A DNA stretch of 64,000 nt. Source: an uncultured Planctomycetales bacterium. GTDB lineage: Bacteria > Omnitrophota > Gorgyraeia > Zapsychrales > JANLHA01. The DNA lies in NCBI GenBank assembly GCA_964474085.1, contig CAYYRJ010000001.1, forward strand, positions 91,631 to 155,630, in the 5' to 3' direction. The translations under genes and the position numbers were made by a program. Below the pieces are notes generated by a model. It had not been told where the DNA came from. It searched no databases and saw nothing but the letters and a program-made list of their open reading frames with translations. Shown here piece by piece: positions 5,785 through 51,572 of the stretch (within the stretch, counting starts at the first letter, position 1; every line of letters starts with the position of its first letter).

Positions 5785-5876
5785 CAAGTTTTTATCTATC
5801 GTTGTCATTCTGAGGCCAGAGGCCGAAGAATCTCAAGCATGGATTCTTCGCTGCGCTCAGGATGACAAAAACTTGC
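5785..5876. repeat. Long imperfect palindromic element (hairpin family H), copy 1
   Basis: caagttttt..gtcattctgaggccagaggccgaagaatc-loop-gattcttcgctgcgctcaggatgac..aaaaacttg. Related copies occur at 39600-39690 (inverted) and 37521-37580 (degenerate). All three lie just 3' of large genes. Confidence 0.6.
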
Positions 5877-11332: not shown

Positions 11333-11558
11333 GCAGGTTAAATTCCAAGCGGGAAAGAAAAAATTTCTTTTCAGCGTTTGATCATCGTGCTATGATTCTT
11401 TCATTAAATCTTTCCTATTTTTGTCGTCGTGCAATTCTTCGTTTTCTGATCTGTTAAAAGTCCTTAGCCAGCAACATTTATTTGCTTTCCAAGGGCTTTT
11501 CTTTTATTGTTCTGAAATTTCCTAATATCATATCTTCCCCAAACAGGAGGGACACTTG

Positions 11559-14500: not shown

Positions 14501-15785
14501 TGCCGGCCAACGGCTTTTAGCGTTATTAGACAAAGAGTTTGAATCAAGCAAAGTTATTGAGCAAGTCATACATTCTTTGGGGCGACTTAAAGAATATCAG
14601 GCGCAAGAGCCATTAATTAAGATGCTTTTTAGCTATAGCGAATTAGAGATCAGTGCGTATCGGGCATTGCGTCAGATTGGTGGCCCAAAGGCTAACTTTA
14701 TTATTTCTGTTGTTGAGAAAATAAAAAGCCAAAATCCTGATCTTTTGGATAGCGAGATTTTGGGAGTGTTATTGCCCAAAGTTTTTCTAATGTCCATTGA
14801 AGGATATGATTTTGTTGCGACCTATACGCCGCAAGAAGGTCATATGTCAACGCAGGTACAAGAAGGCTTTTATTCAGATGCCCAAGGATATGTGCCTTTT
14901 AGGCATGTATTTGGACCATACTTTATCCAGACCAAAGAGGGAATTCCTGTGAACGTGGTTAGAGGAAAAAAGACTTCGAATCCGATCGCCATTTTTTCAG
15001 CAGAATTTATTGATTCGTTGCGCAGTTCTCTTCAACCTCATTTAGAAGATGACCAATTGGGCGTTTCGCTGAGACTTGGTGAACCCCAGGAAGAAATCCA
15101 GAGTTCTTCCTCGGCCGCGATTGATATAGAAAAAATCATTACAGATATTAAATCTGGTGATCAACTGGCCGTTGAGACTTTGATTAGTTTGTTGGCAAAT
15201 GAATCTCGTTCTTATCGTCAGCGTGTTAGAGCAGTATTAAAAGATTTAAATATCAATGACCTTCGGATTGATCTTTATGACAGCGTTGAACAACGATTGC
15301 GGGCAACGGTTCCTGCCGATGTGGATTTTGATGTTTTTGGGCAAAAAGTCCTTGAAGCGTATCGCATTGTTTTGGCTGGGGATGATTTTAGTGCTGAATA
15401 TGTTCAAAGGATGCTAACAGAATATGATTGGAGCGGAATATATGATACTTATAGCTGGCCGGAGGATCCAAACAATCGCGAGTATCAAACTCTTGATCCG
15501 GACAGCTTGACTATTACAAGGATACCAAAGACTACAGATAGCGGTGTCGCCTCGGCCGCGGTGACCCAACCCGTCGGTGGTATCGACTTTAATTCGGCGG
15601 CGCTGGATTTGCAGATTAAACGCGACGGCAATGGTGTTGCGCTGCCCTTGCCGCAGCAGACAATTCAAAATATGAAAATCGACGGATTTTATCCGGTTAT
15701 TATCAACATCGCGCCGGTCAATATTCCGATGCTTTTGGGACAAAAGACACAAAAAGAGCCGATACAGTTAAGTGCGTTAAGATAA
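11559..15785 (+). CDS. Large secreted modular protein, paralog 2 of 4: conserved N-domain, HEAT-repeat core, conserved C-terminal tail
   Basis: RBS aggaggg. Signal peptide MKKNLFMTNHAFARRVTSFFMLIVFSLTTILLPAQASAQS. The N-domain is as in paralog 1. HEAT/PBS-lyase-like repeats are present (LGEIGGQKASELL, LGHFNDQNVKGQLLSLLSD, LGWLQDSRAGQRLLALL). The C-terminal tail is GGIDFNSAALDLQIKRDGNGVALPLPQQ...YPVIINIAPV. The first roughly 770 codons are nearly identical to the next gene. Confidence 0.75.
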   Translation: MKKNLFMTNHAFARRVTSFFMLIVFSLTTILLPAQASAQSIGIPGVNLPAVGTMLGLSESFQPAIIRGMTVYPDNPLKFDFIVNTGDKNLKGQALEKESQKLIKYFLASLTTPENEFWVNLSPYESGRIIPEALGTTEMGRDMLAQDYILKQLTASLLYPEKDLGNKFWQRVHEKAKKLYGVSEVPVDTFNKVWIMPDKAAVYENDNRVFVVERHLKVMLAEDYEKNLTPPSPLFKKAGESGSTQLTPSLDKEGEGGVLKNNIPSQIMRELIIPEIEKEVNEGENFAVVRQIYNSMILATWYKKRLKESLLGQVYVNQNKVKGIDLADKATKQKIYEQYLAAFKKGVYNYIKEDVDALTNEPIPTKYFSGGLTAGAVTQAALTEYNGELSRQPKVVSAAVTQPLTDKGEDVVVSSTLVENANQAQAAAATPIKSVLTDLRTNASFAIPKSSFMDTKLYQLTGAASTWSVSMGGIMERIQGFGLGAETWAIEAAEFATYHPGTVLLGAIAFYAVASFDPIGYFRNKVDFNLRQANALKDDDQKRYLYLDRIVARGQEVVPDLLNQFQQPDASQAKVRDIAYVLGKLKVAQAVEPLISKFSQNIAVDEIVVALGEIGGQKASELLAQQLLEKGSLRSIAVAEGLVKLGVDRGKEFLFEMLKSTDIKLRTAARVSLSRLEINDAPAVIIYDEVYQRLQAVVSPENITLQYNFASEFSAAYAIALSGGDFYVTYVSEATVLRPVKENSSLNADYEKVIVPAKLVIVKEGNKSSPSSASSGIDKLQLTGAVGDLTVSAQGVSELAKDSLTERTSDSSSSAITRWLDNSYLWNVRQLLPRFPTEKRLKALGNLVRLNDSRAIESIRPLLGDDNSQIKARAAYALGHFNDQNVKGQLLSLLSDPWTEVRKAARGALTRFGTETNELIDANIKALSASKEARLEAANELAQLGRGRDDVYNALLSLLESIDSDDRLVGANALGWLQDSRAGQRLLALLDKEFESSKVIEQVIHSLGRLKEYQAQEPLIKMLFSYSELEISAYRALRQIGGPKANFIISVVEKIKSQNPDLLDSEILGVLLPKVFLMSIEGYDFVATYTPQEGHMSTQVQEGFYSDAQGYVPFRHVFGPYFIQTKEGIPVNVVRGKKTSNPIAIFSAEFIDSLRSSLQPHLEDDQLGVSLRLGEPQEEIQSSSSAAIDIEKIITDIKSGDQLAVETLISLLANESRSYRQRVRAVLKDLNINDLRIDLYDSVEQRLRATVPADVDFDVFGQKVLEAYRIVLAGDDFSAEYVQRMLTEYDWSGIYDTYSWPEDPNNREYQTLDPDSLTITRIPKTTDSGVASAAVTQPVGGIDFNSAALDLQIKRDGNGVALPLPQQTIQNMKIDGFYPVIINIAPVNIPMLLGQKTQKEPIQLSALR
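11587..13889. repeat. Copy A of a 2.3-kb near-identical direct repeat (tandem segmental duplication)
   Basis: Matches 15905-18207 at a constant offset of 4318 bp. The embedded antisense ORFs translate identically. Only one a/g difference was noticed, near the 3' boundary. Confidence 0.8.
12241..12336. repeat. Palindromic element of about 95 bp inserted in-frame within a CDS (translates as LTPPSPLFKKAGESGSTQLTPSLDKEGEGGVL)
   Basis: ctccccccagccccctctttaaaaaagcgggggagagcggg...accccctcttt-agat-aaagaggggg (a perfect 10-bp stem) aagggggag. Near-identical copies lie at 16559-16654 and 20404-20499. Confidence 0.6.
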
Positions 15786-15876
15786 ATTATCAATAAGAAG
15801 AATATCTTTCGTGGCAGATTTTTTATTATCGTTCTAAAAAATTCCTCATTTTTCATTTAAACAGGAGGCACACATT

Positions 15877-18800
15877 ATGAAAAAAAACTTTTTTATGATG
15901 AATTATGCGTTTGCGCGTCGGGTAACGAGTTTTTTCATGCTCATTGTCTTTTCGCTGACCACGATTCTTTTGCCGGCTCAAGCCAGCGCCCAGAGCATTG
16001 GCATTCCCGGCGTTAATCTTCCGGCTGTCGGAACAATGCTTGGATTAAGCGAAAGTTTTCAACCGGCGATTATCCGTGGGATGACGGTGTATCCGGACAA
16101 TCCTTTGAAATTTGATTTTATTGTCAATACTGGCGACAAAAACCTTAAAGGCCAGGCGCTTGAAAAAGAGTCGCAGAAGCTGATCAAATATTTTTTGGCG
16201 TCGTTAACGACACCGGAGAATGAGTTTTGGGTCAATCTCTCGCCGTATGAAAGCGGACGGATTATTCCTGAAGCTTTGGGTACAACCGAAATGGGCCGGG
16301 ATATGTTGGCGCAGGATTATATTCTTAAGCAGTTGACTGCGTCTTTGTTGTATCCGGAAAAAGATTTAGGCAATAAATTCTGGCAACGAGTGCATGAAAA
16401 AGCCAAAAAGCTTTATGGGGTCAGCGAAGTTCCAGTGGACACTTTTAATAAAGTGTGGATTATGCCGGACAAAGCAGCGGTTTACGAAAACGATAATCGG
16501 GTTTTTGTCGTCGAGCGGCATTTGAAGGTGATGTTGGCGGAGGACTATGAGAAAAATTTAACTCCCCCCAGCCCCCTCTTTAAAAAAGCGGGGGAGAGCG
16601 GGAGCACTCAACTAACCCCCTCTTTAGATAAAGAGGGGGAAGGGGGAGTTCTGAAGAATAACATTCCCTCCCAAATCATGCGCGAACTGATCATCCCCGA
16701 GATCGAAAAGGAAGTCAACGAAGGGGAGAATTTTGCTGTTGTGCGACAGATTTATAATTCGATGATTTTAGCGACGTGGTACAAAAAACGTTTGAAAGAA
16801 AGTCTTTTGGGCCAAGTGTATGTTAACCAAAACAAAGTTAAGGGCATTGACTTAGCCGATAAAGCGACAAAACAAAAAATTTACGAACAGTATTTGGCCG
16901 CGTTTAAGAAGGGTGTTTACAACTATATTAAGGAAGATGTCGACGCTCTGACTAACGAACCGATTCCAACCAAGTATTTTTCGGGCGGGTTGACCGCAGG
17001 TGCTGTGACACAAGCGGCTTTGACTGAATATAATGGTGAACTTTCCCGCCAACCGAAAGTTGTCTCTGCCGCGGTCACACAGCCGCTGACAGACAAGGGA
17101 GAGGACGTCGTTGTTTCCTCGACGCTGGTAGAAAATGCCAATCAAGCCCAAGCCGCCGCTGCAACTCCAATCAAGTCCGTTTTGACAGACCTCAGAACAA
17201 ACGCTTCTTTCGCAATTCCGAAATCATCGTTTATGGATACTAAACTTTATCAACTCACCGGAGCAGCAAGTACGTGGTCTGTTTCCATGGGAGGGATAAT
17301 GGAGAGAATTCAAGGTTTTGGACTTGGCGCAGAGACGTGGGCGATAGAGGCTGCCGAGTTTGCAACATATCATCCGGGAACAGTTTTGCTAGGCGCTATC
17401 GCGTTTTATGCAGTTGCCTCTTTTGACCCGATTGGGTACTTTAGAAATAAAGTGGATTTTAACTTAAGGCAAGCGAATGCACTTAAGGATGATGATCAAA
17501 AACGTTATCTTTATTTAGATAGAATTGTTGCGCGGGGACAAGAAGTTGTTCCTGACTTATTGAATCAATTTCAACAGCCCGACGCTAGTCAGGCTAAGGT
17601 ACGTGATATTGCTTATGTATTGGGAAAACTTAAAGTTGCCCAAGCTGTTGAGCCGTTGATTTCTAAATTTAGTCAAAATATTGCAGTTGATGAAATTGTT
17701 GTAGCTTTAGGAGAAATCGGAGGACAGAAGGCTAGTGAACTGCTAGCACAACAGCTTTTAGAGAAAGGTTCACTTAGAAGCATCGCTGTTGCAGAAGGTT
17801 TAGTGAAATTGGGTGTTGATCGTGGCAAAGAATTTTTGTTTGAAATGTTAAAGAGTACGGATATTAAGCTGCGGACAGCGGCCAGAGTTTCTTTAAGTCG
17901 TTTGGAGATCAATGATGCGCCCGCGGTTATAATTTATGATGAGGTTTATCAAAGACTGCAAGCAGTAGTAAGTCCTGAAAATATCACTCTTCAATATAAT
18001 TTTGCTTCTGAATTTTCTGCGGCTTATGCGATTGCTTTGAGTGGAGGGGATTTTTACGTTACGTATGTTTCCGAGGCAACAGTTCTTCGTCCTGTTAAGG
18101 AAAATTCTTCCCTGAATGCTGATTATGAGAAAGTTATTGTGCCGGCAAAATTGGTAATTGTTAAAGAAGGTAATAAGTCTAGCCCTTCCTCCGCCTCGTC
18201 GGGGATTATGGAAAAGGCCAAGGCTCACGCTGTCATTTATTTCGGCCGTAAAGGTTTTAAAAAATCAATGCCTTATTTATTTAAGCTTTTAGGGCATAAA
18301 GATGAAAAGATTCGCTCAGAAGCTGAAGCAGTTTTAGTTAAGTTAGGGGCAACAAAAGAGCAAATGGTTGGTGCGTATATTATGGTTTTGAAAGGTTCTC
18401 CTAGGAACGGGGATCAGAAAAATGTTATTAAAAAATTGGGTGAAATTGGAGATAAAAAAACAATTGAGGTATTGTTGCCCTACTTAAAATTTAGTTGGTA
18501 CGAGTTTGAAGCCCAAACAGCTTTGGAAAAATTAGGCGTAACAAAAGAGCAAATAGTGGATTGGTATATTGTAGCTTTGAGTCAGGAACGAGATTATTAT
18601 AAGGATTATATTATTATAAGATTGGGTGAGCTTGGAGATCCGCGGGCAATTCCGGTATTATTGCCATATTTAGAAAGTAACGGTTTCACTGTAGCTAAAA
18701 TAGCTTTGACAAAGTTAGGCGTCACAAAAGAGCAAATGTCTGATGTTGTGAGTGAGCAGTTGGGAAGAGAATTTGTTGTTTATGATAAAAAACTCGATGA

Positions 18801-19602
18801 TAAGTATGTTTTAGATTTTAAAAGAAAACTTATTGGAAGATTAAATGAATTGGGGGATCCACGAGCAATTAAGCACTTATTGCCGTATTTAAATAGTAAC
18901 AATTACGCTGAAGCCCAAATAGCTTTGGAAAAATTAGGAGCAACAAAAGAGCAATTAACAGATGCGTATATTGTAGCGTTAGAAAACCCTTCTTTAGATA
19001 TTTCAATTGCTGCAGCAAATGCATTAGCTGACTTAGGGGATCAACGTTGCGTAGAGTTTTTGATTGAAACGTTGAAAAAAAGAAATGTGGTCAAGTCGTT
19101 AAATCGTCTGGGGATCCGTGACCCTAGGGTTGATCGTTTTAATGAGGTTGTTAGAAGAGTCCCTAGTAGTAATTTAATTGTTAAAGCGTATAACATTATT
19201 GAATCTGGTAATGATTTTATAGTTATTCATCACCCAGCTACGTATGAGATGTCAAATTATGACTGGTATGATCCGAACGGATTTAATTACGGACCTATTC
19301 CAATAGAGGTTTCTCCTTCTTCTGATTCACTTCAAATAATTCCAAAGGGTTCGCAGCCACCAGCAGCCTCGGCTGCTGTGACCACACCCGTTGGTGGTAT
19401 CGACTTTAATTCGGCGGCGCTTGATTTGCAGATTAAACGCGACAAAAAGGGCGTCCCGTTGCCTTTGCCCCAGCAGACGATACAAAACATGAAAATCGAC
19501 GGGTTTTATCCGGTCATTATCAATATCACGCCGGTCAATATTCCGATGCTTTTGGGACAAAAGACACAAAAAGAGCCGCAGCAGTTAAGTGCGTTAAGGT
19601 AA
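15877..19602 (+). CDS. Large secreted modular protein, paralog 3 of 4: N-terminus identical to paralog 2, different PBS-lyase HEAT-repeat core, conserved C-terminal tail
   Basis: RBS aggagg precedes ATG 15877. Identical to paralog 2 up to about aa 770, then at least five tandem repeats of about 46 aa (LGEIGDKKTIEVLLPYL..., LGELGDPRAIPVLLPYL..., LNELGDPRAIKHLLPYL..., LGxTKEQ). The C-terminal tail is GGIDFNSAALDLQIKRDKKGVPLPLPQQ...YPVIINITPV. Confidence 0.75.
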   Translation: MKKNFFMMNYAFARRVTSFFMLIVFSLTTILLPAQASAQSIGIPGVNLPAVGTMLGLSESFQPAIIRGMTVYPDNPLKFDFIVNTGDKNLKGQALEKESQKLIKYFLASLTTPENEFWVNLSPYESGRIIPEALGTTEMGRDMLAQDYILKQLTASLLYPEKDLGNKFWQRVHEKAKKLYGVSEVPVDTFNKVWIMPDKAAVYENDNRVFVVERHLKVMLAEDYEKNLTPPSPLFKKAGESGSTQLTPSLDKEGEGGVLKNNIPSQIMRELIIPEIEKEVNEGENFAVVRQIYNSMILATWYKKRLKESLLGQVYVNQNKVKGIDLADKATKQKIYEQYLAAFKKGVYNYIKEDVDALTNEPIPTKYFSGGLTAGAVTQAALTEYNGELSRQPKVVSAAVTQPLTDKGEDVVVSSTLVENANQAQAAAATPIKSVLTDLRTNASFAIPKSSFMDTKLYQLTGAASTWSVSMGGIMERIQGFGLGAETWAIEAAEFATYHPGTVLLGAIAFYAVASFDPIGYFRNKVDFNLRQANALKDDDQKRYLYLDRIVARGQEVVPDLLNQFQQPDASQAKVRDIAYVLGKLKVAQAVEPLISKFSQNIAVDEIVVALGEIGGQKASELLAQQLLEKGSLRSIAVAEGLVKLGVDRGKEFLFEMLKSTDIKLRTAARVSLSRLEINDAPAVIIYDEVYQRLQAVVSPENITLQYNFASEFSAAYAIALSGGDFYVTYVSEATVLRPVKENSSLNADYEKVIVPAKLVIVKEGNKSSPSSASSGIMEKAKAHAVIYFGRKGFKKSMPYLFKLLGHKDEKIRSEAEAVLVKLGATKEQMVGAYIMVLKGSPRNGDQKNVIKKLGEIGDKKTIEVLLPYLKFSWYEFEAQTALEKLGVTKEQIVDWYIVALSQERDYYKDYIIIRLGELGDPRAIPVLLPYLESNGFTVAKIALTKLGVTKEQMSDVVSEQLGREFVVYDKKLDDKYVLDFKRKLIGRLNELGDPRAIKHLLPYLNSNNYAEAQIALEKLGATKEQLTDAYIVALENPSLDISIAAANALADLGDQRCVEFLIETLKKRNVVKSLNRLGIRDPRVDRFNEVVRRVPSSNLIVKAYNIIESGNDFIVIHHPATYEMSNYDWYDPNGFNYGPIPIEVSPSSDSLQIIPKGSQPPAASAAVTTPVGGIDFNSAALDLQIKRDKKGVPLPLPQQTIQNMKIDGFYPVIINITPVNIPMLLGQKTQKEPQQLSALR
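15905..18207. repeat. Copy B of the 2.3-kb direct repeat
   Basis: See 11587-13889. Confidence 0.8.
16559..16654. repeat. In-frame palindromic element, copy 2
   Basis: Same sequence as 12241-12336. Lies inside the duplicated block. Confidence 0.6.
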
Positions 19603-19630
19603 AACAGTTTTAGAAAATTGTTTTTTAAAA

Positions 19631-19669
19631 GGCGGTGAGGCTTTGCAAAAGCTTCATCGCCTTTGTTTT
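19631..19669 (+). terminator. Intrinsic terminator after paralog 3
   Basis: ggcggtgaggct-(ttgcaaa)-agcttcatcgcc is a 12-bp stem with 2 G:U pairs, followed by tttgtttt. Confidence 0.65.
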
Positions 19670-19719
19670 GCCGTCCGGTTGCATAGTAAGAGAGTGACCT
19701 ATATACTTATACTATTATT

Positions 19720-22700
19720 ATGTCAATTTCTTCCAAACAGATAGCTCGTTTTTTGCGCAAGTCCTTATTTTGGCTTCTGATCGTTAGCTTTGCGCTAAAC
19801 ACCACCTTGCCGGCGTATGCCAAAGGGACGGAGGGTTTTTCTTTGCCTAGCGTCGGAGAGCAGGTTGCCTTAAGCTCTGCGTTTTCGCCAGTATTGCTAA
19901 AGGCGGTCAAAGTCAATCCGGATAATCCGTTTCAATTCGATTTTATCGTCGATGTCGGAAGCTCCAATTTGAAAGACGATGAATTAAAAGCGCAAGCGCA
20001 AAAACTGATCCGTTACTTTTTAGCGTCTTTGACAACGCCCGAAAATGATTTGTGGGTCAACCTTTCTCCGTATGAAAAAGAACGAATTATCCCAGAGTCT
20101 TTTGGTACAACTGAAATGGGTCGCGATCTTTTGGCAGAGGATTATTTGCTTAAGCAGATCACCGCGACTTTGCTTTCCCCGCAAGGGGAGCTGGGGAAAA
20201 AATATTGGGAAAAGGTTCATCGAGAAGAGACGTTAGACGTTAGACGCTTGACGCTGGCAAATAATTTAACCCCTAACCCCCAACCCCAAGCCACCAATAA
20301 TTTTAATAAAGTCTGGATCGTCCCGCAAAAGGCTGTTGTCTACGAGAATGGTACTACTGCTTACGTCGACGAAACGCATTTGAAAGTGATGATGGAAGAA
20401 GATTTAACTCCCCCCAGCCCCCTCTTTAAAAAAGCGGGGGAGAGCGGGAGCGTTCAATTAACCCCCTCTTTAGATAAAGAGGGGGAAGGGGGAGTTCTGA
20501 CAACCATCGTCCAGCGTCCATCGTCCATCGTCTCTGGTCAGCCTCGGCCGGATGGCCTCGGCATTCCCTCGGACGTTGCGTCCTCGGTCATACGTGAGTT
20601 CATCATCCCAGAGCTTGAGAAAGAAGTTAACGAAGGTAAAAATTTTGCGCCTTTGCGTCAGATTTACAATTCACTAATTCTTGCAAATTGGTATAAGAAG
20701 CGATTAAAAAACAGCATTCTTTCGCAGGTCTATGTTGATAAGAACAAGCTAGCCGGCATTGACTTAGATGACAAAGAACAAGCTCAGAAAATTTATGATC
20801 AGTATGTCGCAGCTTTTAAAAAAGGCGTTTATAACTATATCAAAGAAGACTATGACCCAGCGACGCAAGAAACCGTTCCGCGTAAATATTTTTCGGGCGG
20901 AATGGGTTTCGCCAGCTCGAGCGCGGCGACGCAATACCGTCAAGGTTTGCCTGAAAATGCTGGCGTTGCAAGCTCTGGATTGCGTAAAATTACGGTCGAT
21001 ACTCGACCATATGACACGAAAGAATTGGAAGACAAAGAAGTTCTTAAGCGGTTTGCAAAAATACAAGCTCAAAATAATGATAAAGCTAGACTTGCGCAGA
21101 GCAAGAATCGTGTTTACGAGGTGTTTAATTTGTCTGGGTTAAAACACATTGATTTTGCTTCTATGTATGAAGCATCTCAATCGGTTGCGCATACGCCAGC
21201 GTGGGGGGGTGTCGTTGCGATTCAGCCGTTATTGACCAAGTTTATCGACGATGTTTTTGAAAAAGCTTTGGATTTTGATGATCCGAAAGCAACTCAGATT
21301 GTATTTTTGCAGGCTGGGGCCCAACCGATTTATGAGACTGCGGTTTTAATGGCCAAAGTTACTGGAGTTTTTCCTGCCGAAAACCTTAAGAGCGTTTGGG
21401 CCACAATGGGAAATTATCGGCAAATGAAGGACGATAAAGAACAACGCTTACTATTTATTAAGTATTTGCATGATCAGGGAGTTTTGTCGCCGAAGACGAA
21501 ACATTTATTAATTGTTGATACCGACGCTGGAATTGTTGAAATCGGCACAGCAGCAATTTTTGCAAAAACACTTTTGGATAATGATGTTCTTCAAACGGCA
21601 AATCAGCGGTTTGGATTAAACATCAAGCTTTTTAATGAAGTTGGAGGTGAAAACACTTTAGATTTTTCTTATTTGTATAGCGCCTATGTTGCAAGTCCTG
21701 CAAAACGTGAAATTCATATTAAGGCTGAAAAAATATCTGGGCAAATAGACGCTAAATTACGCATTGAAGGATATAACGACAATACATCGGACATAGATCA
21801 AGCCATTCGCATTTCTAACCTATGGTATCCTGTTGACAGTTTTGTAAAAACGGCGAATATTTCTGATCGTTTTTCTTTAGATCAGGAAGGGCGATCCCAG
21901 GTGACTTTTCTGGCGCCCAATAAGCAACCTTATGATAATTTGAAGATATTAAATTTACTCCGTGCGGTTGAGGATATTGGTTTGTTAATAGGGACGCTTA
22001 ACGTTATGAGTGCCAAGGGTTTTGATGTGGCAGAGCAGGCGGACCAGTTGATTGAAAGGCTAGAGGACGTTTTTAAAACAAGCGGGGTCACGCAAGCGGA
22101 TATCGATGCTTCCAAACCGCAGCAAGGTTATCGGGCGTCTTCGTCGATCGCGTTTGGGACATCCGCAAAGATGCTTTTAAGTCCCCAAGATTTGGCCCGA
22201 TCAGAGGTTGTTAGCGTTCTACATACAATTGAGGATAGTGTAACAGGAAAACGTCGGATGACTTTAGAAATTAAGTCGCCCGATGGTAAAACTTTTATTT
22301 TAAAACTTTATAGTAAAAGCGAAGATTTCAATAATGAATCGTTGGGGTATGCTGTGGCCGAGAAACTTGGGATGCATGTGCCTAAGCATCAAGAGTTTGA
22401 AGAGTCGTCTGATTTTGATGGATTAGTCAAACAAGCCGTTAAAGTTGGGAATATTCTGCCGCAAATGGCTGAGCCTTACGGTTGGGCACGCTTGATTGAG
22501 CAGGTACAAGAATATAAAACGGATAAACCTTATAATGGATTAGAAGAATTGGTCGTTTTTACACATTTGATGCATTTTGAAGATTACGATAAATTAAAAC
22601 CGCAACAAATTTTTTCAAGGAATATATTTTTCACAAAAGACGGTAAGTATGTCGTTTATGATTATGAAACGGAGTGGGATGTAGATTTTTCAAATAATTA

Positions 22701-23169
22701 TTTTTCTAAGTATAAAGATGTAGCCTATAGAATTGATCAGGGCAGATTAGAAAATGTTATTAAAGTAGCCCGCAAATTAACGGCTGATGATTTTCGAGAT
22801 CTTCTGGTGACTGATCAAAGCCGTCAAAATTTTCAAAAACGGGTTGAGAGCTTCGAGGAGGATATGATTCGACAATTGGGATATTTCCGCGATGAACCTC
22901 AGGCCGTTCGACTCTTGGAGATCGTCAAAAACATGCCGTCATCTTCGGATGTCGGCGGGATTGATTTGACGGCTGGCAAAACGCCGTTGGATATCCGCGC
23001 CCAAAGCGAGCCGGTCGAGTTTAATTTTGACCCTCAACAGCTGCAAAATTTGCAATTCGACGGCTTGGTACCGGTGATTATTAACATTGCCCCGGTTATT
23101 AATCTTCCGCAATTTTTAACCGAAAAACCTGTCTTTCAATCCGCCGGGCAGTTAAGCAGATCCAATTGA
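19720..23169 (+). CDS. Large secreted modular protein, paralog 4 of 4: conserved N-domain, distinct globular core (possibly kinase-like), conserved C-terminal tail
   Basis: Signal peptide MSISSKQIARFLRKSLFWLLIVSFALNTTLPAYAKG. N-domain motifs NPFQFDFIV, WVNLSPYE, IIPESFGTTEMGRDLL, FNKVWIVP, NEGKNFAPLRQIY and YFSGG. The C-terminus is GGIDLTAGKTPLDIRAQSEPVEFNFDPQQLQNLQFDGLVPVIINIAPV. About 50% identical to paralogs 2 and 3 in the N-domain. Confidence 0.75.
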   Translation: MSISSKQIARFLRKSLFWLLIVSFALNTTLPAYAKGTEGFSLPSVGEQVALSSAFSPVLLKAVKVNPDNPFQFDFIVDVGSSNLKDDELKAQAQKLIRYFLASLTTPENDLWVNLSPYEKERIIPESFGTTEMGRDLLAEDYLLKQITATLLSPQGELGKKYWEKVHREETLDVRRLTLANNLTPNPQPQATNNFNKVWIVPQKAVVYENGTTAYVDETHLKVMMEEDLTPPSPLFKKAGESGSVQLTPSLDKEGEGGVLTTIVQRPSSIVSGQPRPDGLGIPSDVASSVIREFIIPELEKEVNEGKNFAPLRQIYNSLILANWYKKRLKNSILSQVYVDKNKLAGIDLDDKEQAQKIYDQYVAAFKKGVYNYIKEDYDPATQETVPRKYFSGGMGFASSSAATQYRQGLPENAGVASSGLRKITVDTRPYDTKELEDKEVLKRFAKIQAQNNDKARLAQSKNRVYEVFNLSGLKHIDFASMYEASQSVAHTPAWGGVVAIQPLLTKFIDDVFEKALDFDDPKATQIVFLQAGAQPIYETAVLMAKVTGVFPAENLKSVWATMGNYRQMKDDKEQRLLFIKYLHDQGVLSPKTKHLLIVDTDAGIVEIGTAAIFAKTLLDNDVLQTANQRFGLNIKLFNEVGGENTLDFSYLYSAYVASPAKREIHIKAEKISGQIDAKLRIEGYNDNTSDIDQAIRISNLWYPVDSFVKTANISDRFSLDQEGRSQVTFLAPNKQPYDNLKILNLLRAVEDIGLLIGTLNVMSAKGFDVAEQADQLIERLEDVFKTSGVTQADIDASKPQQGYRASSSIAFGTSAKMLLSPQDLARSEVVSVLHTIEDSVTGKRRMTLEIKSPDGKTFILKLYSKSEDFNNESLGYAVAEKLGMHVPKHQEFEESSDFDGLVKQAVKVGNILPQMAEPYGWARLIEQVQEYKTDKPYNGLEELVVFTHLMHFEDYDKLKPQQIFSRNIFFTKDGKYVVYDYETEWDVDFSNNYFSKYKDVAYRIDQGRLENVIKVARKLTADDFRDLLVTDQSRQNFQKRVESFEEDMIRQLGYFRDEPQAVRLLEIVKNMPSSSDVGGIDLTAGKTPLDIRAQSEPVEFNFDPQQLQNLQFDGLVPVIINIAPVINLPQFLTEKPVFQSAGQLSRSN
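20404..20499. repeat. In-frame palindromic element, copy 3 (about 97% identical to copy 1 within otherwise diverged flanks)
   Basis: ctccccccagccccctctttaaaaaagcgggggagagcgggagcgttcaattaaccccctctttagataaagagggggaagggggag. The flanking nucleotides are not conserved with paralog 2. Confidence 0.6.
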
Positions 23170-28634: not shown

Positions 28635-28675
28635 GAGATGGCTAATATTGTCCCTATTTTTAATATTGCTTTAAT

Positions 28676-28702
28676 GTCATCCCTGCGAAAGCAGGGATCC
28701 AT
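28676..28702. repeat. Left terminal hairpin flanking the GIY-YIG gene
   Basis: gtcatccctgcgaaagcagggatccat. Its reverse complement recurs at 29010-29036, so the pair forms terminal inverted repeats. Confidence 0.6.
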
Positions 28703-28719
28703 GTTTTTAAAGACATGCA

Positions 28720-29010
28720 ATGAATTCATATTTTGTTTATATTCTTGCAAGTAAAAAGAATGGGACATTATATATTGGTGTTACTTCAAACCTAATAAAG
28801 CGTATTTGGGAACATAAACAAGGCCTTGTTGAAGGATTTACAAAGAAATACAATGTCCATCGTCTTGTTTATTTTGAAGAAACACCTGACATCGAAAGCG
28901 CAATAATTCGTGAGAAGCAAATGAAGAAATGGAAACGTCAATGGAAAATAGAATTAATTGAAGAAATGAATCCTGCATGGGATGATTTATATGACAGTAT
29001 TATTAAATAA
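28720..29010 (+). CDS. GIY-YIG nuclease family protein (small, YhbQ/COG2827-like)
   Basis: YFVYILASKKNGTLYIGVTSNLIKRIWEHKQG...REKQMKKWKR is a GIY-YIG catalytic module of about 90 aa. The gene is bracketed by inverted hairpin repeats. Confidence 0.75.
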   Translation: MNSYFVYILASKKNGTLYIGVTSNLIKRIWEHKQGLVEGFTKKYNVHRLVYFEETPDIESAIIREKQMKKWKRQWKIELIEEMNPAWDDLYDSIIK

Positions 29011-29036
29011 TGGATTCCCGCTTTCGCGGGAATGAC
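29010..29036. repeat. Right terminal hairpin flanking the GIY-YIG gene
   Basis: atggattcccgctttcgcgggaatgac, the reverse complement (with 3 mismatches) of 28676-28702. Confidence 0.6.
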
Positions 29037-29078
29037 AGAGTGGGCGTCGGGAATGACAGGGTGGGAAGCGGGAATGAG
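29030..29078. repeat. Short tandem repeat (21-bp unit, about 2.3 copies) derived from the hairpin arm
   Basis: gggaatgacagagtgggcgtc gggaatgacagggtgggaagc gggaatgag. Confidence 0.5.
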
Positions 29079-29481
29079 AAAATTCATCTTAATAATTTCT
29101 TGGTGCGTTTTAGCTGTCGGTTATAACAATCAATTTTGTTTTGCTGCAGCTAAAGCAAAAAATGTTGAAATTGAAGCTTATTATCAAACTGTTTTTGATG
29201 ACAGTATGGTCAATATCATTATTGATTTTGATAATTGGGAAAAGGTGGAACTTACTATTCGTAAACCCGCCGAGATTGAAACCGGAATAGAAAATATAAA
29301 AAAGGTTCTTACTGAATTAAAATCAGAAAAGGATTTGGTCGTCGTTAGGGTAGCCCCAGGAACATTTCGTGATATAGCAATAGATTTTGTGGCACTATTA
29401 AAGAAGTGTGGTGTTGGAAAGATTATTTTTGTGGAAGCAAGAGGAAAATCTTCTGGTCCAATAATGCAAGTTATAGAATAA
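29073..29481 (+). CDS. Hypothetical small secreted protein
   Basis: ATG 29073 (MRKFILIISWCVLAVGYNNQFCFAAAKA is a signal peptide). The longer track ORF starts inside the repeat. No recognisable domain. Confidence 0.45.
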
Positions 29482-29510
29482 TTTGAAAATTTTAAAGGAA
29501 GGCTGTTGAA

Positions 29511-37613: not shown

Positions 37614-39716
37614 TTAAGGACCCAGCATTTTTTTAAGTGTTTTAATTTCGTTTTTGATTCTTTCAATTTTTTCTTTTTGTATTTTGATCGTTTGTTCCTG
37701 ATCCTGTGATACCTTGGTCAAGACGGCAATAATGTCCATTGAGCTTAATGCTTGGCGGCCGTTTAAGGCCACAATTTCGGGAACGTCCTCGGCGATAAAA
37801 CCGGCTGTCGTCTGCCGGCTGGCTTTATAGTTAAACGTCATGGGATTGAGTTTTTCCAAGGTGTCTTCTGCCGTTTGAGAAGCAAGAGGAGTAATATTTT
37901 CTTTGGATTTTCGTGAGGAGCCATTGGTCCAAACGCCGCCAGCGCTTAGAAATGCATTGTTAGCATTTCCAAATTGCATGGCATATGTTCCATCCGTTGG
38001 GGTCGCTTTATTTACGCCAAGATACCCATTATTTTTTACGATAAAAACATCGCCGGAAGCGGTTCTTTTGATATTGATATAATCGTCAGCGGTTGCGTTA
38101 GCATTGATTTCCATGACACCGGAAGGGGATGTGTCCCTAATCCCAACTTTGGGGTTCCAGGGTTGGCCGCTAATTGTTCCGGGGGCGATGATAAAAGCAT
38201 CCGCTGTTGTGACAGAAACAGGAGTATCCGAATAGCCCCAGACAAAAGTCCTGTCGGCCACGGGGTTTAGGAATAACCGCAGTAACTGCATATTTTTTCC
38301 GCCGGCCCAGGAATAGTCACCAGCCGCAGTATTATCTGTGCCGCCCATAACCGTTGAGGAAACGCCGTTGGCGAAGTTTCGTTCTCCGCCGCCGCTGATC
38401 GAATAAGCACCGTTGGCGCTATTTTGTAATCCGCCGCCGATTGCAATGTAATGTCCTGTAAGGTTACTATTATTTTTTCCTCCTGAGATAGTTGAGTAAT
38501 CTCCGAGAGGAATATTACTTTGGCCGCCGGAAACGCGGGAATAATTACCTATTAATGGTGTAAAAACTCCAGGGGCAGGTTGTGCGCTTATCATGCTGCT
38601 GCTTCCTCCACCAATGCTTGCATATTGACCTGTGACAATATTGTTTTCTCCTCCTGAAACAACGGCATAGTCATCGCGCGCTTGATTATTTTTTCCGCCG
38701 CCGATGACAGCATAGCCGCTTGTCCCTCCCCCAACAAGGGGATTGATAGTATTATGTTCTCCGCCGTTGATATTTGAGTAGGGAGTTGAAACTGTATTTG
38801 ATACTCCGCCGCCAACGGTTGCGTAAATGACGCTTGTGGTATTGCTTTGTCCTCCGATGATAGTGGCGTAATCGGCATTTGCGATATTTGCTTGTCCGCC
38901 GGTGATTGTTGCATATTGGCCGCTTGCGGTATTGTTTGTCCCTCCAGTTATTGCAGAGTAATCACCGCTGGCCGTATTTGTTTGTCCTCCGATGACATTA
39001 GAATATTGACCGCTGGCCGTATTTGTGTCTCCGCCGCCGACGACTGAATAAGCGCCGCTGGCTGTTGAATCTTTTCCAAGCGCTGCAGAATAATTTCCGA
39101 TATTCGTATCATCCCATTGGACGCCGCTGACATAACCGGCACGAAAAGCCGCTTTGCGTGGATACCAGATCAAACGGCTGCCTGCGCTAATTCCATCCGG
39201 CAAGACAACGCCGCTGCCAAAAGTTCCCATGGCAATGATTCCGGCATCATTGGCAAGACTTAATTTGAATTCGGGTGTTTTAGTCCCGATGCCGACTTTG
39301 AGCGTTGTGTCCGTTACATAAATGTCGTCGTTGTTTTGGTCCCAGGCATCGCTGACAGATCCCCATTGGCCTGTTCCGCTATTATCGTGGCAATATAGAA
39401 GTAGATTACTTGAGTTGACATAAAGGGTTCCGATCGTGCAGGGATCTGTTAAGTCAACACTTCTGGGCAAAAGGCGCATTTGATCGTATTCACCGGACAA
39501 CGACGGATAATAGAGCGTCATCGTCATCTCCGAGGCTTGCAGACTTGTAGGCAGAATCAATAAAAACCCAAAGATGATTTTGAGAATTAATGCGATGTTC
39601 AAGTTTTTGTCATCCTGAGCGTAGCGAAGGATCTCCATTCCAGATTCTTCGGCCTTTGGCCTCAGAATGACGAGTATAGATAAAAACTTGCATATGACGT
39701 TATCTGGTTTTTTCAT
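37614..39716 (-). CDS. Secreted tail-fibre-like protein B (same architecture as A)
   Basis: Coordinates follow the ORF track. The first 36 or so codons (VILRPKAEESGMEILRYAQDDK) translate hairpin copy 39600-39690. The true start is probably near 39600-39640, just before the signal peptide LNIALILKIIFGFLLILPTSLQAS. Has the LYYPSLSGEYDQMRLLPR module, G/S/N repeats, and the S74-like tail SSRKSKENITPLASQTAEDTLEKLNPMTFNYK...AGFIAEDVPEIVA. Confidence 0.7.
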   Translation of the reverse strand: MKKPDNVICKFLSILVILRPKAEESGMEILRYAQDDKNLNIALILKIIFGFLLILPTSLQASEMTMTLYYPSLSGEYDQMRLLPRSVDLTDPCTIGTLYVNSSNLLLYCHDNSGTGQWGSVSDAWDQNNDDIYVTDTTLKVGIGTKTPEFKLSLANDAGIIAMGTFGSGVVLPDGISAGSRLIWYPRKAAFRAGYVSGVQWDDTNIGNYSAALGKDSTASGAYSVVGGGDTNTASGQYSNVIGGQTNTASGDYSAITGGTNNTASGQYATITGGQANIANADYATIIGGQSNTTSVIYATVGGGVSNTVSTPYSNINGGEHNTINPLVGGGTSGYAVIGGGKNNQARDDYAVVSGGENNIVTGQYASIGGGSSSMISAQPAPGVFTPLIGNYSRVSGGQSNIPLGDYSTISGGKNNSNLTGHYIAIGGGLQNSANGAYSISGGGERNFANGVSSTVMGGTDNTAAGDYSWAGGKNMQLLRLFLNPVADRTFVWGYSDTPVSVTTADAFIIAPGTISGQPWNPKVGIRDTSPSGVMEINANATADDYINIKRTASGDVFIVKNNGYLGVNKATPTDGTYAMQFGNANNAFLSAGGVWTNGSSRKSKENITPLASQTAEDTLEKLNPMTFNYKASRQTTAGFIAEDVPEIVALNGRQALSSMDIIAVLTKVSQDQEQTIKIQKEKIERIKNEIKTLKKMLGP
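39600..39690. repeat. Hairpin family H, copy 3 (inverted relative to 5785-5876), in the spacer between tail-fibre-like genes B and C
   Basis: caagttttt gtcatcctgagcgtagcgaaggatc-tccattcca-gattcttcggcctttggcctcagaatgac...aaaaacttg. Confidence 0.6.
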
Positions 39717-50964: not shown

Positions 50965-51058
50965 GTAAAAAAATAGCTTTAAGTTTTAAGGACTCATAGC
51001 TTGAGTACCATAAATCTTTTATGGCACTTCGCTATGAGTAAGGAATTTCTAGATTTAA

Positions 51059-51132
51059 GGACTCATAGCTCAGCTGGTTAGAGCGCTGCCCTCACATGGC
51101 AGAGGTCGGAGGTTCGAGCCCCCCTGAGTCCA
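51059..51132 (+). tRNA. tRNA-Val (CAC)
   Basis: ggactcatagctcagctggttagagcgctgccctCACatggcagaggtcggaggttcgagcccccctgagtcca. The cloverleaf folds, with one A:C mismatch in the T stem. Confidence 0.7.
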
Positions 51133-51139
51133 TATTTAT

Positions 51140-51424
51140 ATGCGAGAAGACATTTCGTATGTTTATGTTTTGCGAAGTTTAAAGAATAAGAAAAGATATA
51201 TCGGAAGTACTCGATCAACGCCAGAAGAGAGATTGAAACAACATCAATATGGATCTAATAAATGGACGAGTCAAAATGGTCCGTTTGTGTTAGTTTATTC
51301 TGAAGAATTTTCAACATTTTCTGAGGCAAGGAAACGAGAGAATTTTTTAAAAAGTGGGGTAGGGCGAAAGTTTTTAGACGAAATTTTAAAAAATATAAAT
51401 AACTCAGCTTCAGCCATAGGCTGA
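51140..51424 (+). CDS. GIY-YIG nuclease family protein (small)
   Basis: YVYVLRSLKNKKRYIGSTRSTPEERLKQH...REN. Starts 8 nt after tRNA-Val and is followed by a duplicated tRNA-Val 3' half. Confidence 0.7.
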   Translation: MREDISYVYVLRSLKNKKRYIGSTRSTPEERLKQHQYGSNKWTSQNGPFVLVYSEEFSTFSEARKRENFLKSGVGRKFLDEILKNINNSASAIG

Positions 51425-51445
51425 TCCGCCTAAGGCGGAGGTTAT

Positions 51446-51532
51446 AGCGCTGCCCTCACATGGCAGAGGTCGGAGGTTTCAGCCTGAGGCTGATCAGCCT
51501 TTGGCTGACGATAGCCCCCCTGAGTCCATATT
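51446..51532 (+). pseudogene. Partial duplicate of the tRNA-Val 3' half, interrupted by a 34-nt hairpin insert (attachment-site-like remnant)
   Basis: agcgctgccctcacatggcagaggtcggaggtt-[tcagcctgaggctgatcagcctttggctgacgat]-agcccccctgagtccatattt repeats 51082-51138, including the post-tRNA tattt. Confidence 0.55.
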
Positions 51533-51572
51533 TGAAATACCATTTCATACTTAAAAGAAGGGTAAAGCCAAA

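What the first reader, a model, noticed from the sequence alone, without database searches (positions are those of the whole stretch)
28676..29078. GIY-YIG nuclease gene bracketed by inverted copies of a hairpin, a minimal mobile-element-like unit
The 96-aa GIY-YIG ORF (28720-29010) is flanked 18 nt upstream by gtcatccctgcgaaagcagggatccat and at its stop codon by the reverse complement atggattcccgctttcgcgggaatgac. Each is itself a stem-loop. A 21-bp tandem repeat of the arm follows. The unit of about 360 bp is wedged between hisS and a small secreted-protein gene upstream of aspS. The arrangement, a nuclease gene with terminal inverted hairpins, looks like a tiny selfish element or a domesticated remnant of one.
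Basis: seen in the sequence. Interest (0 to 1): 0.55.

Follow-up and report, generated by a model that had tools for sequence, protein, structure and literature searches.

The report
Ssn nuclease gene with its hairpins
This is a small single-strand-DNA nuclease gene of the recently described Ssn family, bracketed by the two DNA hairpins such nucleases recognise; the arrangement was published in 2025, so it is a new member of a known kind, though this copy looks recently acquired.

Summary
A 96-aa GIY-YIG ORF (28720-29010) lies between two inverted 28-nt hairpins (28675-28702 on +, 29010-29037 on -). A 21-bp x2.5 array of the outer half-arm follows.

This is not a new kind of element. It matches the NTS-ssnA-NTS architecture of the Ssn family (Chenal et al., Nat Commun 2025, PMC11893778). 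Ssn proteins are single-domain GIY-YIG enzymes that bind a GTCAT-tagged hairpin in single-stranded DNA only and cut a few nt 5' of it.

- The window protein is 61% identical to the Neisseria gonorrhoeae SsnA orthologue and 64% to a Wolbachia homologue, with the catalytic residues intact.
- The right hairpin passes the published motif. Both hairpins score 46-49 bits with a model built from other loci, and nothing else in the 64 kb does.
- Of 80 homologous loci from many phyla, 52-57 have the same outward-tagged hairpins on both sides.

New here is evidence for cassette mobility:
- The closest relative (AspS 94%) has an empty 44-nt hisS-aspS spacer.
- Other relatives have gene-less hairpin doublets or a toxin-antitoxin pair at that spot.
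- The insert has 30-33% GC against 44-45% for its neighbours.
- Its synonymous divergence is 3-4 times lower than that of flanking hisS.

The mechanism of spread remains unproven.

The parts
28675..28702 (+). Left Ssn-related motif (SRM/NTS-like hairpin): TGTCATCCCTGCGAAAGCAGGGATCCAT. The GTCAT tag faces away from the gene. 8-bp stem 28679-28686 / 28691-28698, GAAA loop.
   Evidence: Sequence. DNA fold -9.3 kcal/mol, z -4.9. 45.9 bits, E 2.9e-9 with model R1 built from other loci, against only 9.7 bits on the opposite strand. Misses the published SRM regex by one substitution. Also scores as terminator-like, followed by CCATGTTTTT.
28700..28717 (.). Palindrome CATGTTTTTAAAGACATG in the 17-nt leader between the left hairpin and the ATG.
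   Evidence: the repeat finder I14. A similar spacer, TGTCTTTTTAAAAGACG, lies between the two hairpins of the gene-less doublet in relative L093.
28720..29010 (+). ssn-like gene: 96-aa single-domain GIY-YIG nuclease.
   Evidence: PF01541 E=6e-17. 61% identity to the N. gonorrhoeae SsnA orthologue and 64% to a Wolbachia homologue. Y7, Y18, R28, H32, E65 and N84 are at least 95% conserved in 75 aligned family members including the window protein. dN/dS 0.16 against L081. GC 30.2% against 44% for the window.
29010..29037 (-). Right SRM. On the - strand it reads TGTCATTCCCGCGAAAGCGGGAATCCAT, with the tag facing away from the gene. Its end overlaps the stop codon by one base.
   Evidence: Exact match to the published degenerate SRM pattern. 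By eye, 26 of 28 positions agree with the Neisseria NTS consensus quoted in the paper. 48.6 bits, E 6e-10 with R1.
29026..29077 (+). 21-bp x2.5 tandem array of the outer half-arm plus flank (GCGGGAATGAC + about 10 nt). On the - strand these are extra GTCATTCCCG half-sites 5' of the right SRM. The third unit supplies the ATG of the next ORF.
   Evidence: The copy number differs between the window (3 half-sites) and the close relative L081 (2). Similar arrays lie outside the right SRM in several other loci and next to a Neisseria NTS.
29074..29481 (+). Small orphan ORF (135 aa, hydrophobic N-terminus). It is part of the same insertion relative to related genomes.
   Evidence: Absent from all relatives with conserved hisS-aspS synteny. 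Homologues occur only in L081-L084. No relative was found in JGI metagenome contigs. GC 32.8%. dS 0.22 against 0.70 for hisS.
28635..29510 (.). Whole hisS-aspS interval. It corresponds to a 44-nt spacer in the closest relative L166. Exact breakpoints could not be determined.

Best explanation
The locus is a member of the Ssn/SRM system. The ORF encodes a small, single-domain GIY-YIG endonuclease of the Ssn family, and the two flanking hairpins are its cognate recognition motifs (SRMs).

Shown for homologues from Neisseria and Wolbachia: the protein binds the hairpin only when the DNA is single-stranded and only on the strand that reads GTCAT...; it cuts a few nucleotides 5' of the tag and ignores dsDNA and RNA.

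Inferred here: because the two tags face outward on opposite strands, the predicted cuts fall just outside the cassette, one per strand, near 28671/28672 on + and 29040/29041 on -.

Shown here by comparison: in this Omnitrophota lineage the gene, its hairpins and a small orphan ORF form a low-GC insertion in the hisS-aspS spacer. It is missing from the nearest relative and is younger than the flanking hisS gene. It therefore behaves as a laterally acquired cassette.

Not known: whether the nuclease itself drives that movement. No other canonical SRM lies in the 64-kb window, so within this window the enzyme's only evident targets are its own ends.
For: Family identity
- Pfam GIY-YIG only, 96 aa.
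- 61.1% identity over residues 6-95 to the N. gonorrhoeae chromosomal orthologue of SsnA, which itself sits among NTS copies.
- 64% identity to a Wolbachia homologue.
- Catalytic Tyr/Tyr/Arg/His/Glu/Asn conserved.
- Biochemistry of the family: PMC11893778.

Hairpins are SRMs
- The right copy passes the published pattern.
- Both copies are the only strong hits of an independent covariance model in the window, and the hits are strand-specific.
- In 80 homologous loci, model hits run at 6.17 per kb within 150 nt of the gene and 0.079 per kb beyond 500 nt.
- Orientation is 64:14 upstream and 62:7 downstream.
- Stem covariation: 98 double-sided changes against 28.9 +/- 4.6 in shuffles.
- The left and right hairpins of one locus resemble each other more than hairpins of different loci.

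Cassette behaviour
- Empty site in L166 (AspS 94% identical) and in L086, L089, L090, L091, L094 and L168/L169.
- GC is 30.2% and 32.8% for the two inserted genes, against 44.5% and 45.2% for hisS and aspS.
- Window against L081: dS is 0.17 (ssn) and 0.22 (small ORF) against 0.70 (hisS), Fisher p=1.4e-6.
- Units about 90% identical in nucleotide sequence occur in MAGs of different phyla, with homology ending at or within a few tens of nt of the hairpin tags.
- Two 98.6%-identical copies occur in one MAG.
Against: - No biochemical test was done on this protein.
- The left hairpin fails the exact published motif by one position.
- The CDD cd10448 assignment could not be checked.
- Breakpoints and target duplications could not be resolved, because the hisS 3' end and the spacer have diverged.
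- The inserted block is larger than hairpin-gene-hairpin, so spread by homologous recombination of flanks (for example transformation) would explain the data without any transposition.
- Low dS in AT-rich genes could be partly compositional.
- MAG binning errors could inflate the cross-phylum similarity.
- Only 64 kb of the genome was examined for other SRMs.
Confidence: 0.85

Rival explanations
1. Autonomous transposon. Hairpin-ssn-hairpin is an insertion sequence of a new class in which the GIY-YIG single-strand nuclease acts as the transposase. Gene-less hairpin doublets would be its non-autonomous derivatives.
For: - Terminal inverted hairpins with predicted cuts just outside both ends.
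- Presence/absence polymorphism at one site.
- Gene-less inverted doublets at the same spacer in L093/L088 (30.6-32.8 bits), and of another hairpin type in L085 and L087.
- Homology between units of unrelated MAGs ends at or close to the tags.
- Two near-identical copies in one MAG.
- The paper itself notes that the architecture is identical to an IS.
Against: - GIY-YIG enzymes hydrolyse DNA and form no covalent intermediate, so strand transfer would need other factors.
- Each strand carries only one correctly oriented site, unlike IS200/IS605, where both cuts are on one strand.
- No target-site duplication or excision footprint was found here.
- The indel in this lineage also contains an unrelated ORF.
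- In the one MAG with two copies, the repeated segment extends beyond the hairpins to separate 17-bp inverted repeats. This suggests mobilisation by something else.
Confidence: 0.2
2. Domesticated host function. As proposed for Neisseria, the nuclease restricts or trims incoming single-stranded DNA that carries SRMs and so modulates recombination. The flanking copies would be relics or regulatory sites.
For: - Shown experimentally for N. meningitidis SsnA.
- The protein is under purifying selection (dN/dS 0.16).
- The family is conserved at 63-80% identity across phyla.
Against: - No other canonical SRM lies in 64 kb, so there is no genome-wide target set like the hundreds of NTS in Neisseria.
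- The gene is missing from the nearest relatives, which does not fit a core function.
- Natural competence of Omnitrophota is unknown.
Confidence: 0.2
3. The hairpins are ordinary intrinsic terminators or generic REP-like structural repeats, and their position around a nuclease gene is coincidental.
For: Both hairpins satisfy a simple terminator rule: a GC-rich stem followed by a T-rich tail, on + after hisS and on - after the unit.
Against: - The same tagged sequence, not just any stem, recurs around homologues in dozens of phyla in a fixed orientation.
- The tag GTCAT is invariant and the 3' flank (TCCAG) strongly conserved, while the stem covaries.
- Homologous nucleases bind this motif specifically.
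Confidence: 0.03
4. Classical GIY-YIG homing endonuclease gene that cuts an empty allele and is copied in by repair.
For: GIY-YIG fold. Weak similarity to the group I intron endonuclease model TIGR01453 (21.3 bits). Patchy distribution.
Against: - The score is far below the 56-bit cut-off.
- There is no DNA-binding extension; the protein is a 96-aa single domain.
- It is not in an intron or intein.
- Family members need the hairpin for binding and ignore dsDNA. They would therefore cut occupied alleles, not empty ones.
Confidence: 0.03

Closest known systems
Ssn family / SsnA with NTS (SRM) repeats (Chenal et al. 2025, Nat Commun 16:2388; CDD cd10448 GIY-YIG_unchar_3)
   Same: - Single-domain GIY-YIG protein of about 95 aa.
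- 61% identity to the Neisseria orthologue.
- Same GTCAT-tagged 8-bp hairpin; the right copy fits the published motif.
- Hairpins on both sides of the gene.
- Family spread over many phyla.
   Different: - The host is an uncultivated Omnitrophota bacterium.
- No expansion of the motif: only the two flanking copies in 64 kb, against hundreds in Neisseria or Wolbachia.
- Here both tags face outward, whereas around the Neisseria gene the copies are numerous and mixed in orientation.
- The activity of this protein is untested.
RAYT/REP and IS200/IS605 (HUH Y1 transposases with subterminal hairpins)
   Same: A small gene bracketed by hairpins that are recognised as single-stranded DNA. There are gene-less hairpin doublets elsewhere. 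Domestication is debated for both.
   Different: - Unrelated enzyme: GIY-YIG hydrolase, not an HUH tyrosine transposase.
- No covalent intermediate is expected.
- The recognition sites lie on opposite strands rather than the same strand.
Neisseria dRS3 / NIME repeats
   Same: The core palindrome ATTCCC-N8-GGGAAT is identical to the right hairpin.
   Different: dRS3 was defined without the oriented flanks. Here there is one pair only, not mosaic arrays.
GIY-YIG homing endonucleases (I-TevI type)
   Same: Catalytic domain and selfish-element flavour.
   Different: No DNA-binding domain, no intron context, and a single-strand hairpin target instead of a dsDNA homing site.
UPF0213 / YhbQ-type small GIY-YIG proteins (PDB 1ZG2, BH0048)
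   Same: Stand-alone GIY-YIG domain of about 100 aa. This is the only PDB sequence match (E=9.5e-5).
   Different: Only distant similarity. As far as I know, no associated hairpins have been described.

Membership tests
Ssn (cd10448) single-strand nucleases | Single-domain GIY-YIG protein of about 90-100 aa with no extra DNA-binding domain | tested here: met
   96 aa. The only Pfam hit is PF01541, covering residues 4-77.
Ssn (cd10448) single-strand nucleases | Sequence homology to experimentally characterised SsnA proteins (N. meningitidis, W. pipientis) | tested here: met
   61.1% identity, E=3e-30, to the N. gonorrhoeae chromosomal orthologue (locus L165). 64% to a Wolbachia endosymbiont homologue, L061. 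These are close proxies, not the exact proteins assayed in the paper.
Ssn (cd10448) single-strand nucleases | Catalytic residues (Y6, Y17, E64 of Nm SsnA) present | tested here: met
   Y7, Y18 and E65, plus R28, H32 and N84, are at least 95% conserved in an alignment of 75 family members. The one-residue offset is inferred.
Ssn (cd10448) single-strand nucleases | Gene flanked by SRM hairpins matching HGTCWYN(0-2)YYVSBRHN(0-5)WNVSBRGN(0-2)RNCYNB | tested here: met
   The right copy matches exactly. The left copy needs one substitution but scores 45.9 bits with a covariance model built from other loci.
Ssn (cd10448) single-strand nucleases | Assignment to CDD model cd10448 | not testable with these tools
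   No CDD search is available. NCBIfam has no specific model.
Ssn (cd10448) single-strand nucleases | Binds and cuts only ssDNA, 5' of the hairpin, on the tag strand | not testable with these tools
   Needs purified protein and oligonucleotides. Known for homologues only.
RAYT/REP, IS200/IS605 | HUH Y1 transposase encoded between the hairpins | tested here: not met
   The encoded protein is GIY-YIG.
GIY-YIG homing endonucleases | Reaches the family score, with a DNA-binding extension and an intron or intein context | tested here: not met
   TIGR01453 scores 21.3 bits against a 56.05-bit cut-off. The gene is 96 aa and intergenic.
Insertion sequences / MITEs in the classical sense | Terminal inverted repeats | tested here: met
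   33-nt arms, 82% complementary.
Insertion sequences / MITEs in the classical sense | Target-site duplication and precise empty site | tested here: inconclusive
   Empty sites exist, but the flanks are too diverged to place breakpoints. No direct repeat is evident next to the hairpins.
Insertion sequences / MITEs in the classical sense | Multiple identical copies within one genome | tested here: inconclusive
   There is one copy in this 64-kb window. Two 98.6%-identical copies occur in another MAG.

The most novel reading that the evidence does not exclude
Hairpin-ssn-hairpin is an autonomous single-strand-DNA transposon of a new class, mobilised by a GIY-YIG nuclease. The nuclease would nick just outside each outward-facing hairpin. 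The gene-less inverted doublets (seen at the same hisS-aspS spacer in relatives and twice elsewhere in this window) would be its non-autonomous derivatives. The recurrent roughly 20-bp half-site arrays outside the hairpin distal to the gene's 3' end would be scars of its cleavage-and-repair cycle.
Probability: 0.2. Interest if true: 0.75.

Novelty: new member of a known kind. Interest (0 to 1): 0.3.

Why it matters
The Ssn family was described only in 2025. It is of interest as the first site-specific nuclease family that cuts single-stranded DNA only. Its role outside Neisseria, and the origin of its hairpin repeats, are open questions. The authors only hypothesised that NTS-ssnA-NTS is, or was, a mobile element.

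This locus is a clean minimal case. There is one gene, two cognate hairpins and no repeat expansion. An empty orthologous site exists in the nearest relative, the composition looks foreign, and the cassette is younger than its flanks. That makes it a convenient natural example for testing whether the cassette moves and how.

It also adds an Omnitrophota enzyme/site pair, with two slightly different hairpins, to the catalogue of potential ssDNA tools. Beyond that, it is not surprising to a specialist who knows the 2025 paper.

Tried and rejected
- A metagenome scan with the small downstream ORF found no relatives. I switched to AspS as the anchor.
- The published SRM regex with 1-2 mismatches allowed is no better than shuffled sequence: 5 hits against 2-12, and 51 against 73-93. 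I abandoned it for a covariance model.
- A generic scan for a GTYA tag plus a 6-bp stem is also noisy in the window: 24 hits against 14 expected. I used it only next to genes, where the background is low.
- A fixed-spacing pattern for the second hairpin type found nothing.
- The paper's supplementary tables are not held, so the Nm SsnA sequence itself was unavailable. A mislabelled N. gonorrhoeae chromosome in the plasmid collection served instead.
- No close homologue is in phage records (best 35% identity) or in IMG/VR contigs, so there is no evidence for phage carriage.
- Plasmid hits are mostly megaplasmids or mislabelled chromosomes.
- NCBIfam and Rfam have no specific family.
- The only PDB sequence match is the distant 1ZG2.
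- Two align_proteins calls failed on a stop codon. I replaced them with a script.
- Hairpins as mere terminators: considered and rejected (see rivals).
- The MNT-HepT pair that occupies the same spacer in L167 has no SRMs, so it is not part of the same system.

Full report
**Observation**

A 96-aa ORF at 28720-29010 (+) is a GIY-YIG domain protein (PF01541, E=6e-17).

- The left hairpin, GTCATCCCTGCGAAAGCAGGGATCCAT (28676-28702), ends seventeen nucleotides upstream of the ATG.
- The right hairpin, ATGGATTCCCGCTTTCGCGGGAATGAC (29010-29036), is its inverted counterpart and shares one base with the stop codon.
- The repeat finder gives 33-nt arms, 82% complementary.
- The four differences within the 27-nt hairpins are two compensated base pairs, so each copy keeps a perfect 8-bp stem.
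- The left hairpin and its complement fold as DNA at -9.3 and -9.2 kcal/mol, with z about -5. The right hairpin forms the same stem in its 81-nt context.
- A degenerate version of the hairpin occurs nowhere else in the 64 kb, against 0.1 expected by chance.
- A 21-bp x2.5 array of the outer half-arm follows at 29026-29077.
- HisS ends at 28634 and AspS starts at 29511.

**What the protein family looks like**

The protein has thousands of relatives. They are 63-80% identical in Omnitrophota, Patescibacteria, Chloroflexota, Planctomycetota, Proteobacteria (including Legionella and Wolbachia), Bacteroidota and others.

I printed the flanks of 80 genome loci. Almost all carry the same design: GTCAT-stem-loop-stem-CCAG a few tens of nt upstream of the start, and its reverse complement just after the stop.

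| Measure | Result |
|---|---|
| Hairpin on both sides, strict rule | 57 of 80 |
| Hairpin on at least one side, strict rule | 71 of 80 |
| Hairpin on both sides, covariance model | 52 of 80 |
| Hairpin on at least one side, covariance model | 69 of 80 |
| Model hits within 150 nt of the gene | 6.17 per kb |
| Model hits more than 500 nt away | 0.079 per kb |
| Orientation upstream (+ against -) | 64:14 |
| Orientation downstream (- against +) | 62:7 |

The covariance model was built from 72 hairpins, excluding the window's two sequences. It was built from hairpins of these same 80 loci, so the near-gene hits match partly by construction. The orientation ratios mean the tags face outward.

The stem is maintained by compensatory change. 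There are 98 double-sided changes against 28.9 +/- 4.6 in shuffles, and the given register is the best of seven. The two most variable pairs are exactly those at which the window's left and right copies differ. The left and right hairpins of one locus are more alike than hairpins of different loci (0 of 5000 permutations).

**It is a known system**

A literature search found Chenal et al. 2025 (PMC11893778). The paper reports the following:

- N. meningitidis SsnA (94 aa, CDD cd10448) binds the hairpin CGTCATTCCCGCGMAVGCGGGAATCYRG (NTS, an oriented superset of dRS3). It binds only as single-stranded DNA and only on that strand.
- It cuts a few nt 5' of the hairpin. It ignores dsDNA and RNA.
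- Homologues from two other Neisseria species and from Wolbachia cut their own variants (SRMs).
- 42% of homologues are flanked by SRMs on both sides.
- The NTS-ssnA-NTS architecture is described as 'identical to' insertion sequences, and domestication is put forward as a hypothesis.

I found no later paper on the subject in the library.

**Membership**

- The window protein is 61% identical (E=3e-30) to the N. gonorrhoeae chromosomal orthologue, which sits among eight NTS copies. It is 64% identical to a Wolbachia homologue.
- Y7, Y18, R28, H32, E65 and N84 are at least 95% conserved in 75 aligned family members. They correspond to the residues whose mutation abolished activity in the paper.
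- The right hairpin matches the published degenerate SRM pattern exactly. The left one misses it by one substitution.
- With the independent covariance model the two score 48.6 and 45.9 bits, are strand-specific, and are the only significant hits in the window.
- The CDD assignment and the enzymology could not be tested.

**Is it mobile?**

The host is an Omnitrophota bacterium. Synteny HU-hisS-aspS-LysM is conserved in its relatives. The state of the hisS-aspS spacer varies:

| Relative | AspS identity | State of the spacer |
|---|---|---|
| L166 | 94% | Empty, 44 nt |
| L086, L089, L090, L091, L094 | 72-77% | Empty |
| L168/L169 | 83% | Empty |
| L167 | 89% | MNT-HepT toxin-antitoxin pair, no SRMs |
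| L093/L088 | 74% | Gene-less inverted doublet of canonical SRMs (32.8 and 30.6 bits). The 17-nt spacer resembles the window's leader palindrome. |
| L085 and L087 | 88% and 77% | Gene-less doublets of a different GTCAT-tagged hairpin |
| Window, near-identical contigs L082-L084, and L081 | - | ssn cassette |

Further points bear on the age and origin of the cassette:

- The ssn ORF and the small downstream ORF have 30.2% and 32.8% GC, against 44.5% and 45.2% for hisS and aspS.
- Between the window and L081, synonymous divergence is 0.70 in hisS but 0.17 in ssn and 0.22 in the small ORF (p=1.4e-6). ssn is under purifying selection, with dN/dS 0.16.
- Elsewhere, units from MAGs assigned to different phyla are 87-91% identical in nucleotide sequence. 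In the Acetothermia/Dehalococcoidia pair the right boundary of homology lies at the tag, and the left boundary extends about 30 nt upstream into the tail of an adjacent hairpin. In the second pair the left boundary lies at the tag, and homology on the right runs about 40 nt beyond it through two half-site repeats.
- One MAG has two 98.6%-identical copies.

Together this shows a cassette that is gained, lost and exchanged. It does not show how. Here the indel includes an unrelated ORF, no target duplication could be seen, and recombination through flanking homology would suffice.

**Mechanism, with its status**

- Shown for homologues: hairpin-specific, strand-specific cleavage of ssDNA 5' of the tag.
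- Inferred here: with outward tags on opposite strands, the cuts should fall just outside the cassette, near 28671/28672 (+) and 29040/29041 (-). These positions come from my reading of the oligonucleotide lengths given in the paper.
- Inferred: no other canonical SRM is present in 64 kb, so within the window the enzyme's evident substrates are its own ends. That fits a self-directed role better than the genome-wide recombination control proposed for Neisseria.
- Not shown: any strand transfer or copying step.

A side role of the left hairpin as the hisS terminator is possible.

**Verdict**

The finding is real and correctly read as mobile-element-like, but it belongs to a family and an architecture published in 2025. 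The new information is a minimal Omnitrophota member with comparative evidence for recent lateral acquisition, plus several side observations listed separately. Interest is modest.

Noticed in passing
window 51059-51533: A second, unrelated stand-alone GIY-YIG ORF (51140-51424, 94 aa, PF01541 E=4.7e-17, only 33% identical to the Ssn-like one). It lies directly after tRNA-Val(CAC) (51059-51132). A duplicated 3' part of that tRNA follows it: 51440-51484 is 93% identical to 51076-51120, and 51513-51533 is identical to 51117-51137. A palindromic insert of about 30 nt sits in the T-arm. A 20-nt 5' repeat occurs at 50982 and 51051. It looks like a roughly 400-bp insertion at a tRNA gene with target duplication. 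There are no SRM hairpins.
   Followed up: partly
window 5803-5867 and 39607-39673: Two gene-less inverted doublets of GTCAT-tagged hairpins of another sequence type (GTCATTCTGAGGCCAGAGGCCGAAGAATC and GTCATCCTGAGCGYAGCGAAGRATC). The two copies are reverse complements of each other, including outer flanks CAAGTTTTT...AAAAACTTG, giving a MITE-like repeat of about 100 bp. They score only 11 bits with the canonical SRM model. No cognate nuclease gene was seen in the window.
   Followed up: partly
window 29026-29077; L013, L016, L033, L045, L053, L060, L061, L068 just outside the right hairpin; L165 288-330: Short tandem arrays (period 15-22 nt) of the tag plus 5' half-arm recur outside the hairpin distal to the gene's 3' end. 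They occur in about 7-10 of 64 loci, against 1 of 64 at the left end (p=0.06), and next to a Neisseria NTS. The copy number differs between the window (3) and the 95%-identical relative L081 (2). The 2025 paper does not mention this. The mechanism is unknown.
   Followed up: partly
L085 3308-3475; L087 937-1048; L093 3400-3472; L167 1921-2563: The hisS-aspS spacer is a hot spot in this Omnitrophota clade. Different relatives carry gene-less hairpin doublets of two sequence types. In L085 three 34-bp tandem units sit inside one hairpin, and hisS reads into the repeat. One relative carries an MNT-HepT toxin-antitoxin pair. Others are empty.
   Followed up: partly
L069 4911-5401 and L070 4884-5401 (same MAG, two contigs): Two 98.6%-identical copies of an ssn unit lie inside a repeat of about 490 bp that extends beyond the hairpins. 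It ends in 17-bp inverted repeats CATAAGSGCTAACTTAA / TTAAGTTAGCGCTTATG. Each copy is flanked by a possible 11-bp direct repeat (GGGGNCGGAGG; GGGCTGACCCC). One copy has a 27-nt insertion in the loop of its left hairpin.
   Followed up: no
window 11556-23169: Three tandem paralogous large ORFs (1409, 1241 and 1149 aa). The first has HEAT repeats. The first two share a 2.4-kb segment at 98.8% identity (11497-13889 against 15819-18207).
   Followed up: partly
window 29074-29481: The small ORF that arrived with the cassette is an orphan: no Pfam hit, and homologues only in the near-identical contigs and L081. Its start codon is created by the third, degenerate half-site repeat (GGGAATGAG). It evolves fast: 82% amino-acid identity and dN/dS 0.45 against L081.
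   Followed up: partly
L165 (N. gonorrhoeae NZ_CP119142.1, 2.17 Mb): Records labelled as plasmids in the plasmid collection are evidently whole Neisseria chromosomes. The ssnA reading frame there has no in-frame ATG immediately upstream of the conserved VYIL motif.
   Followed up: no
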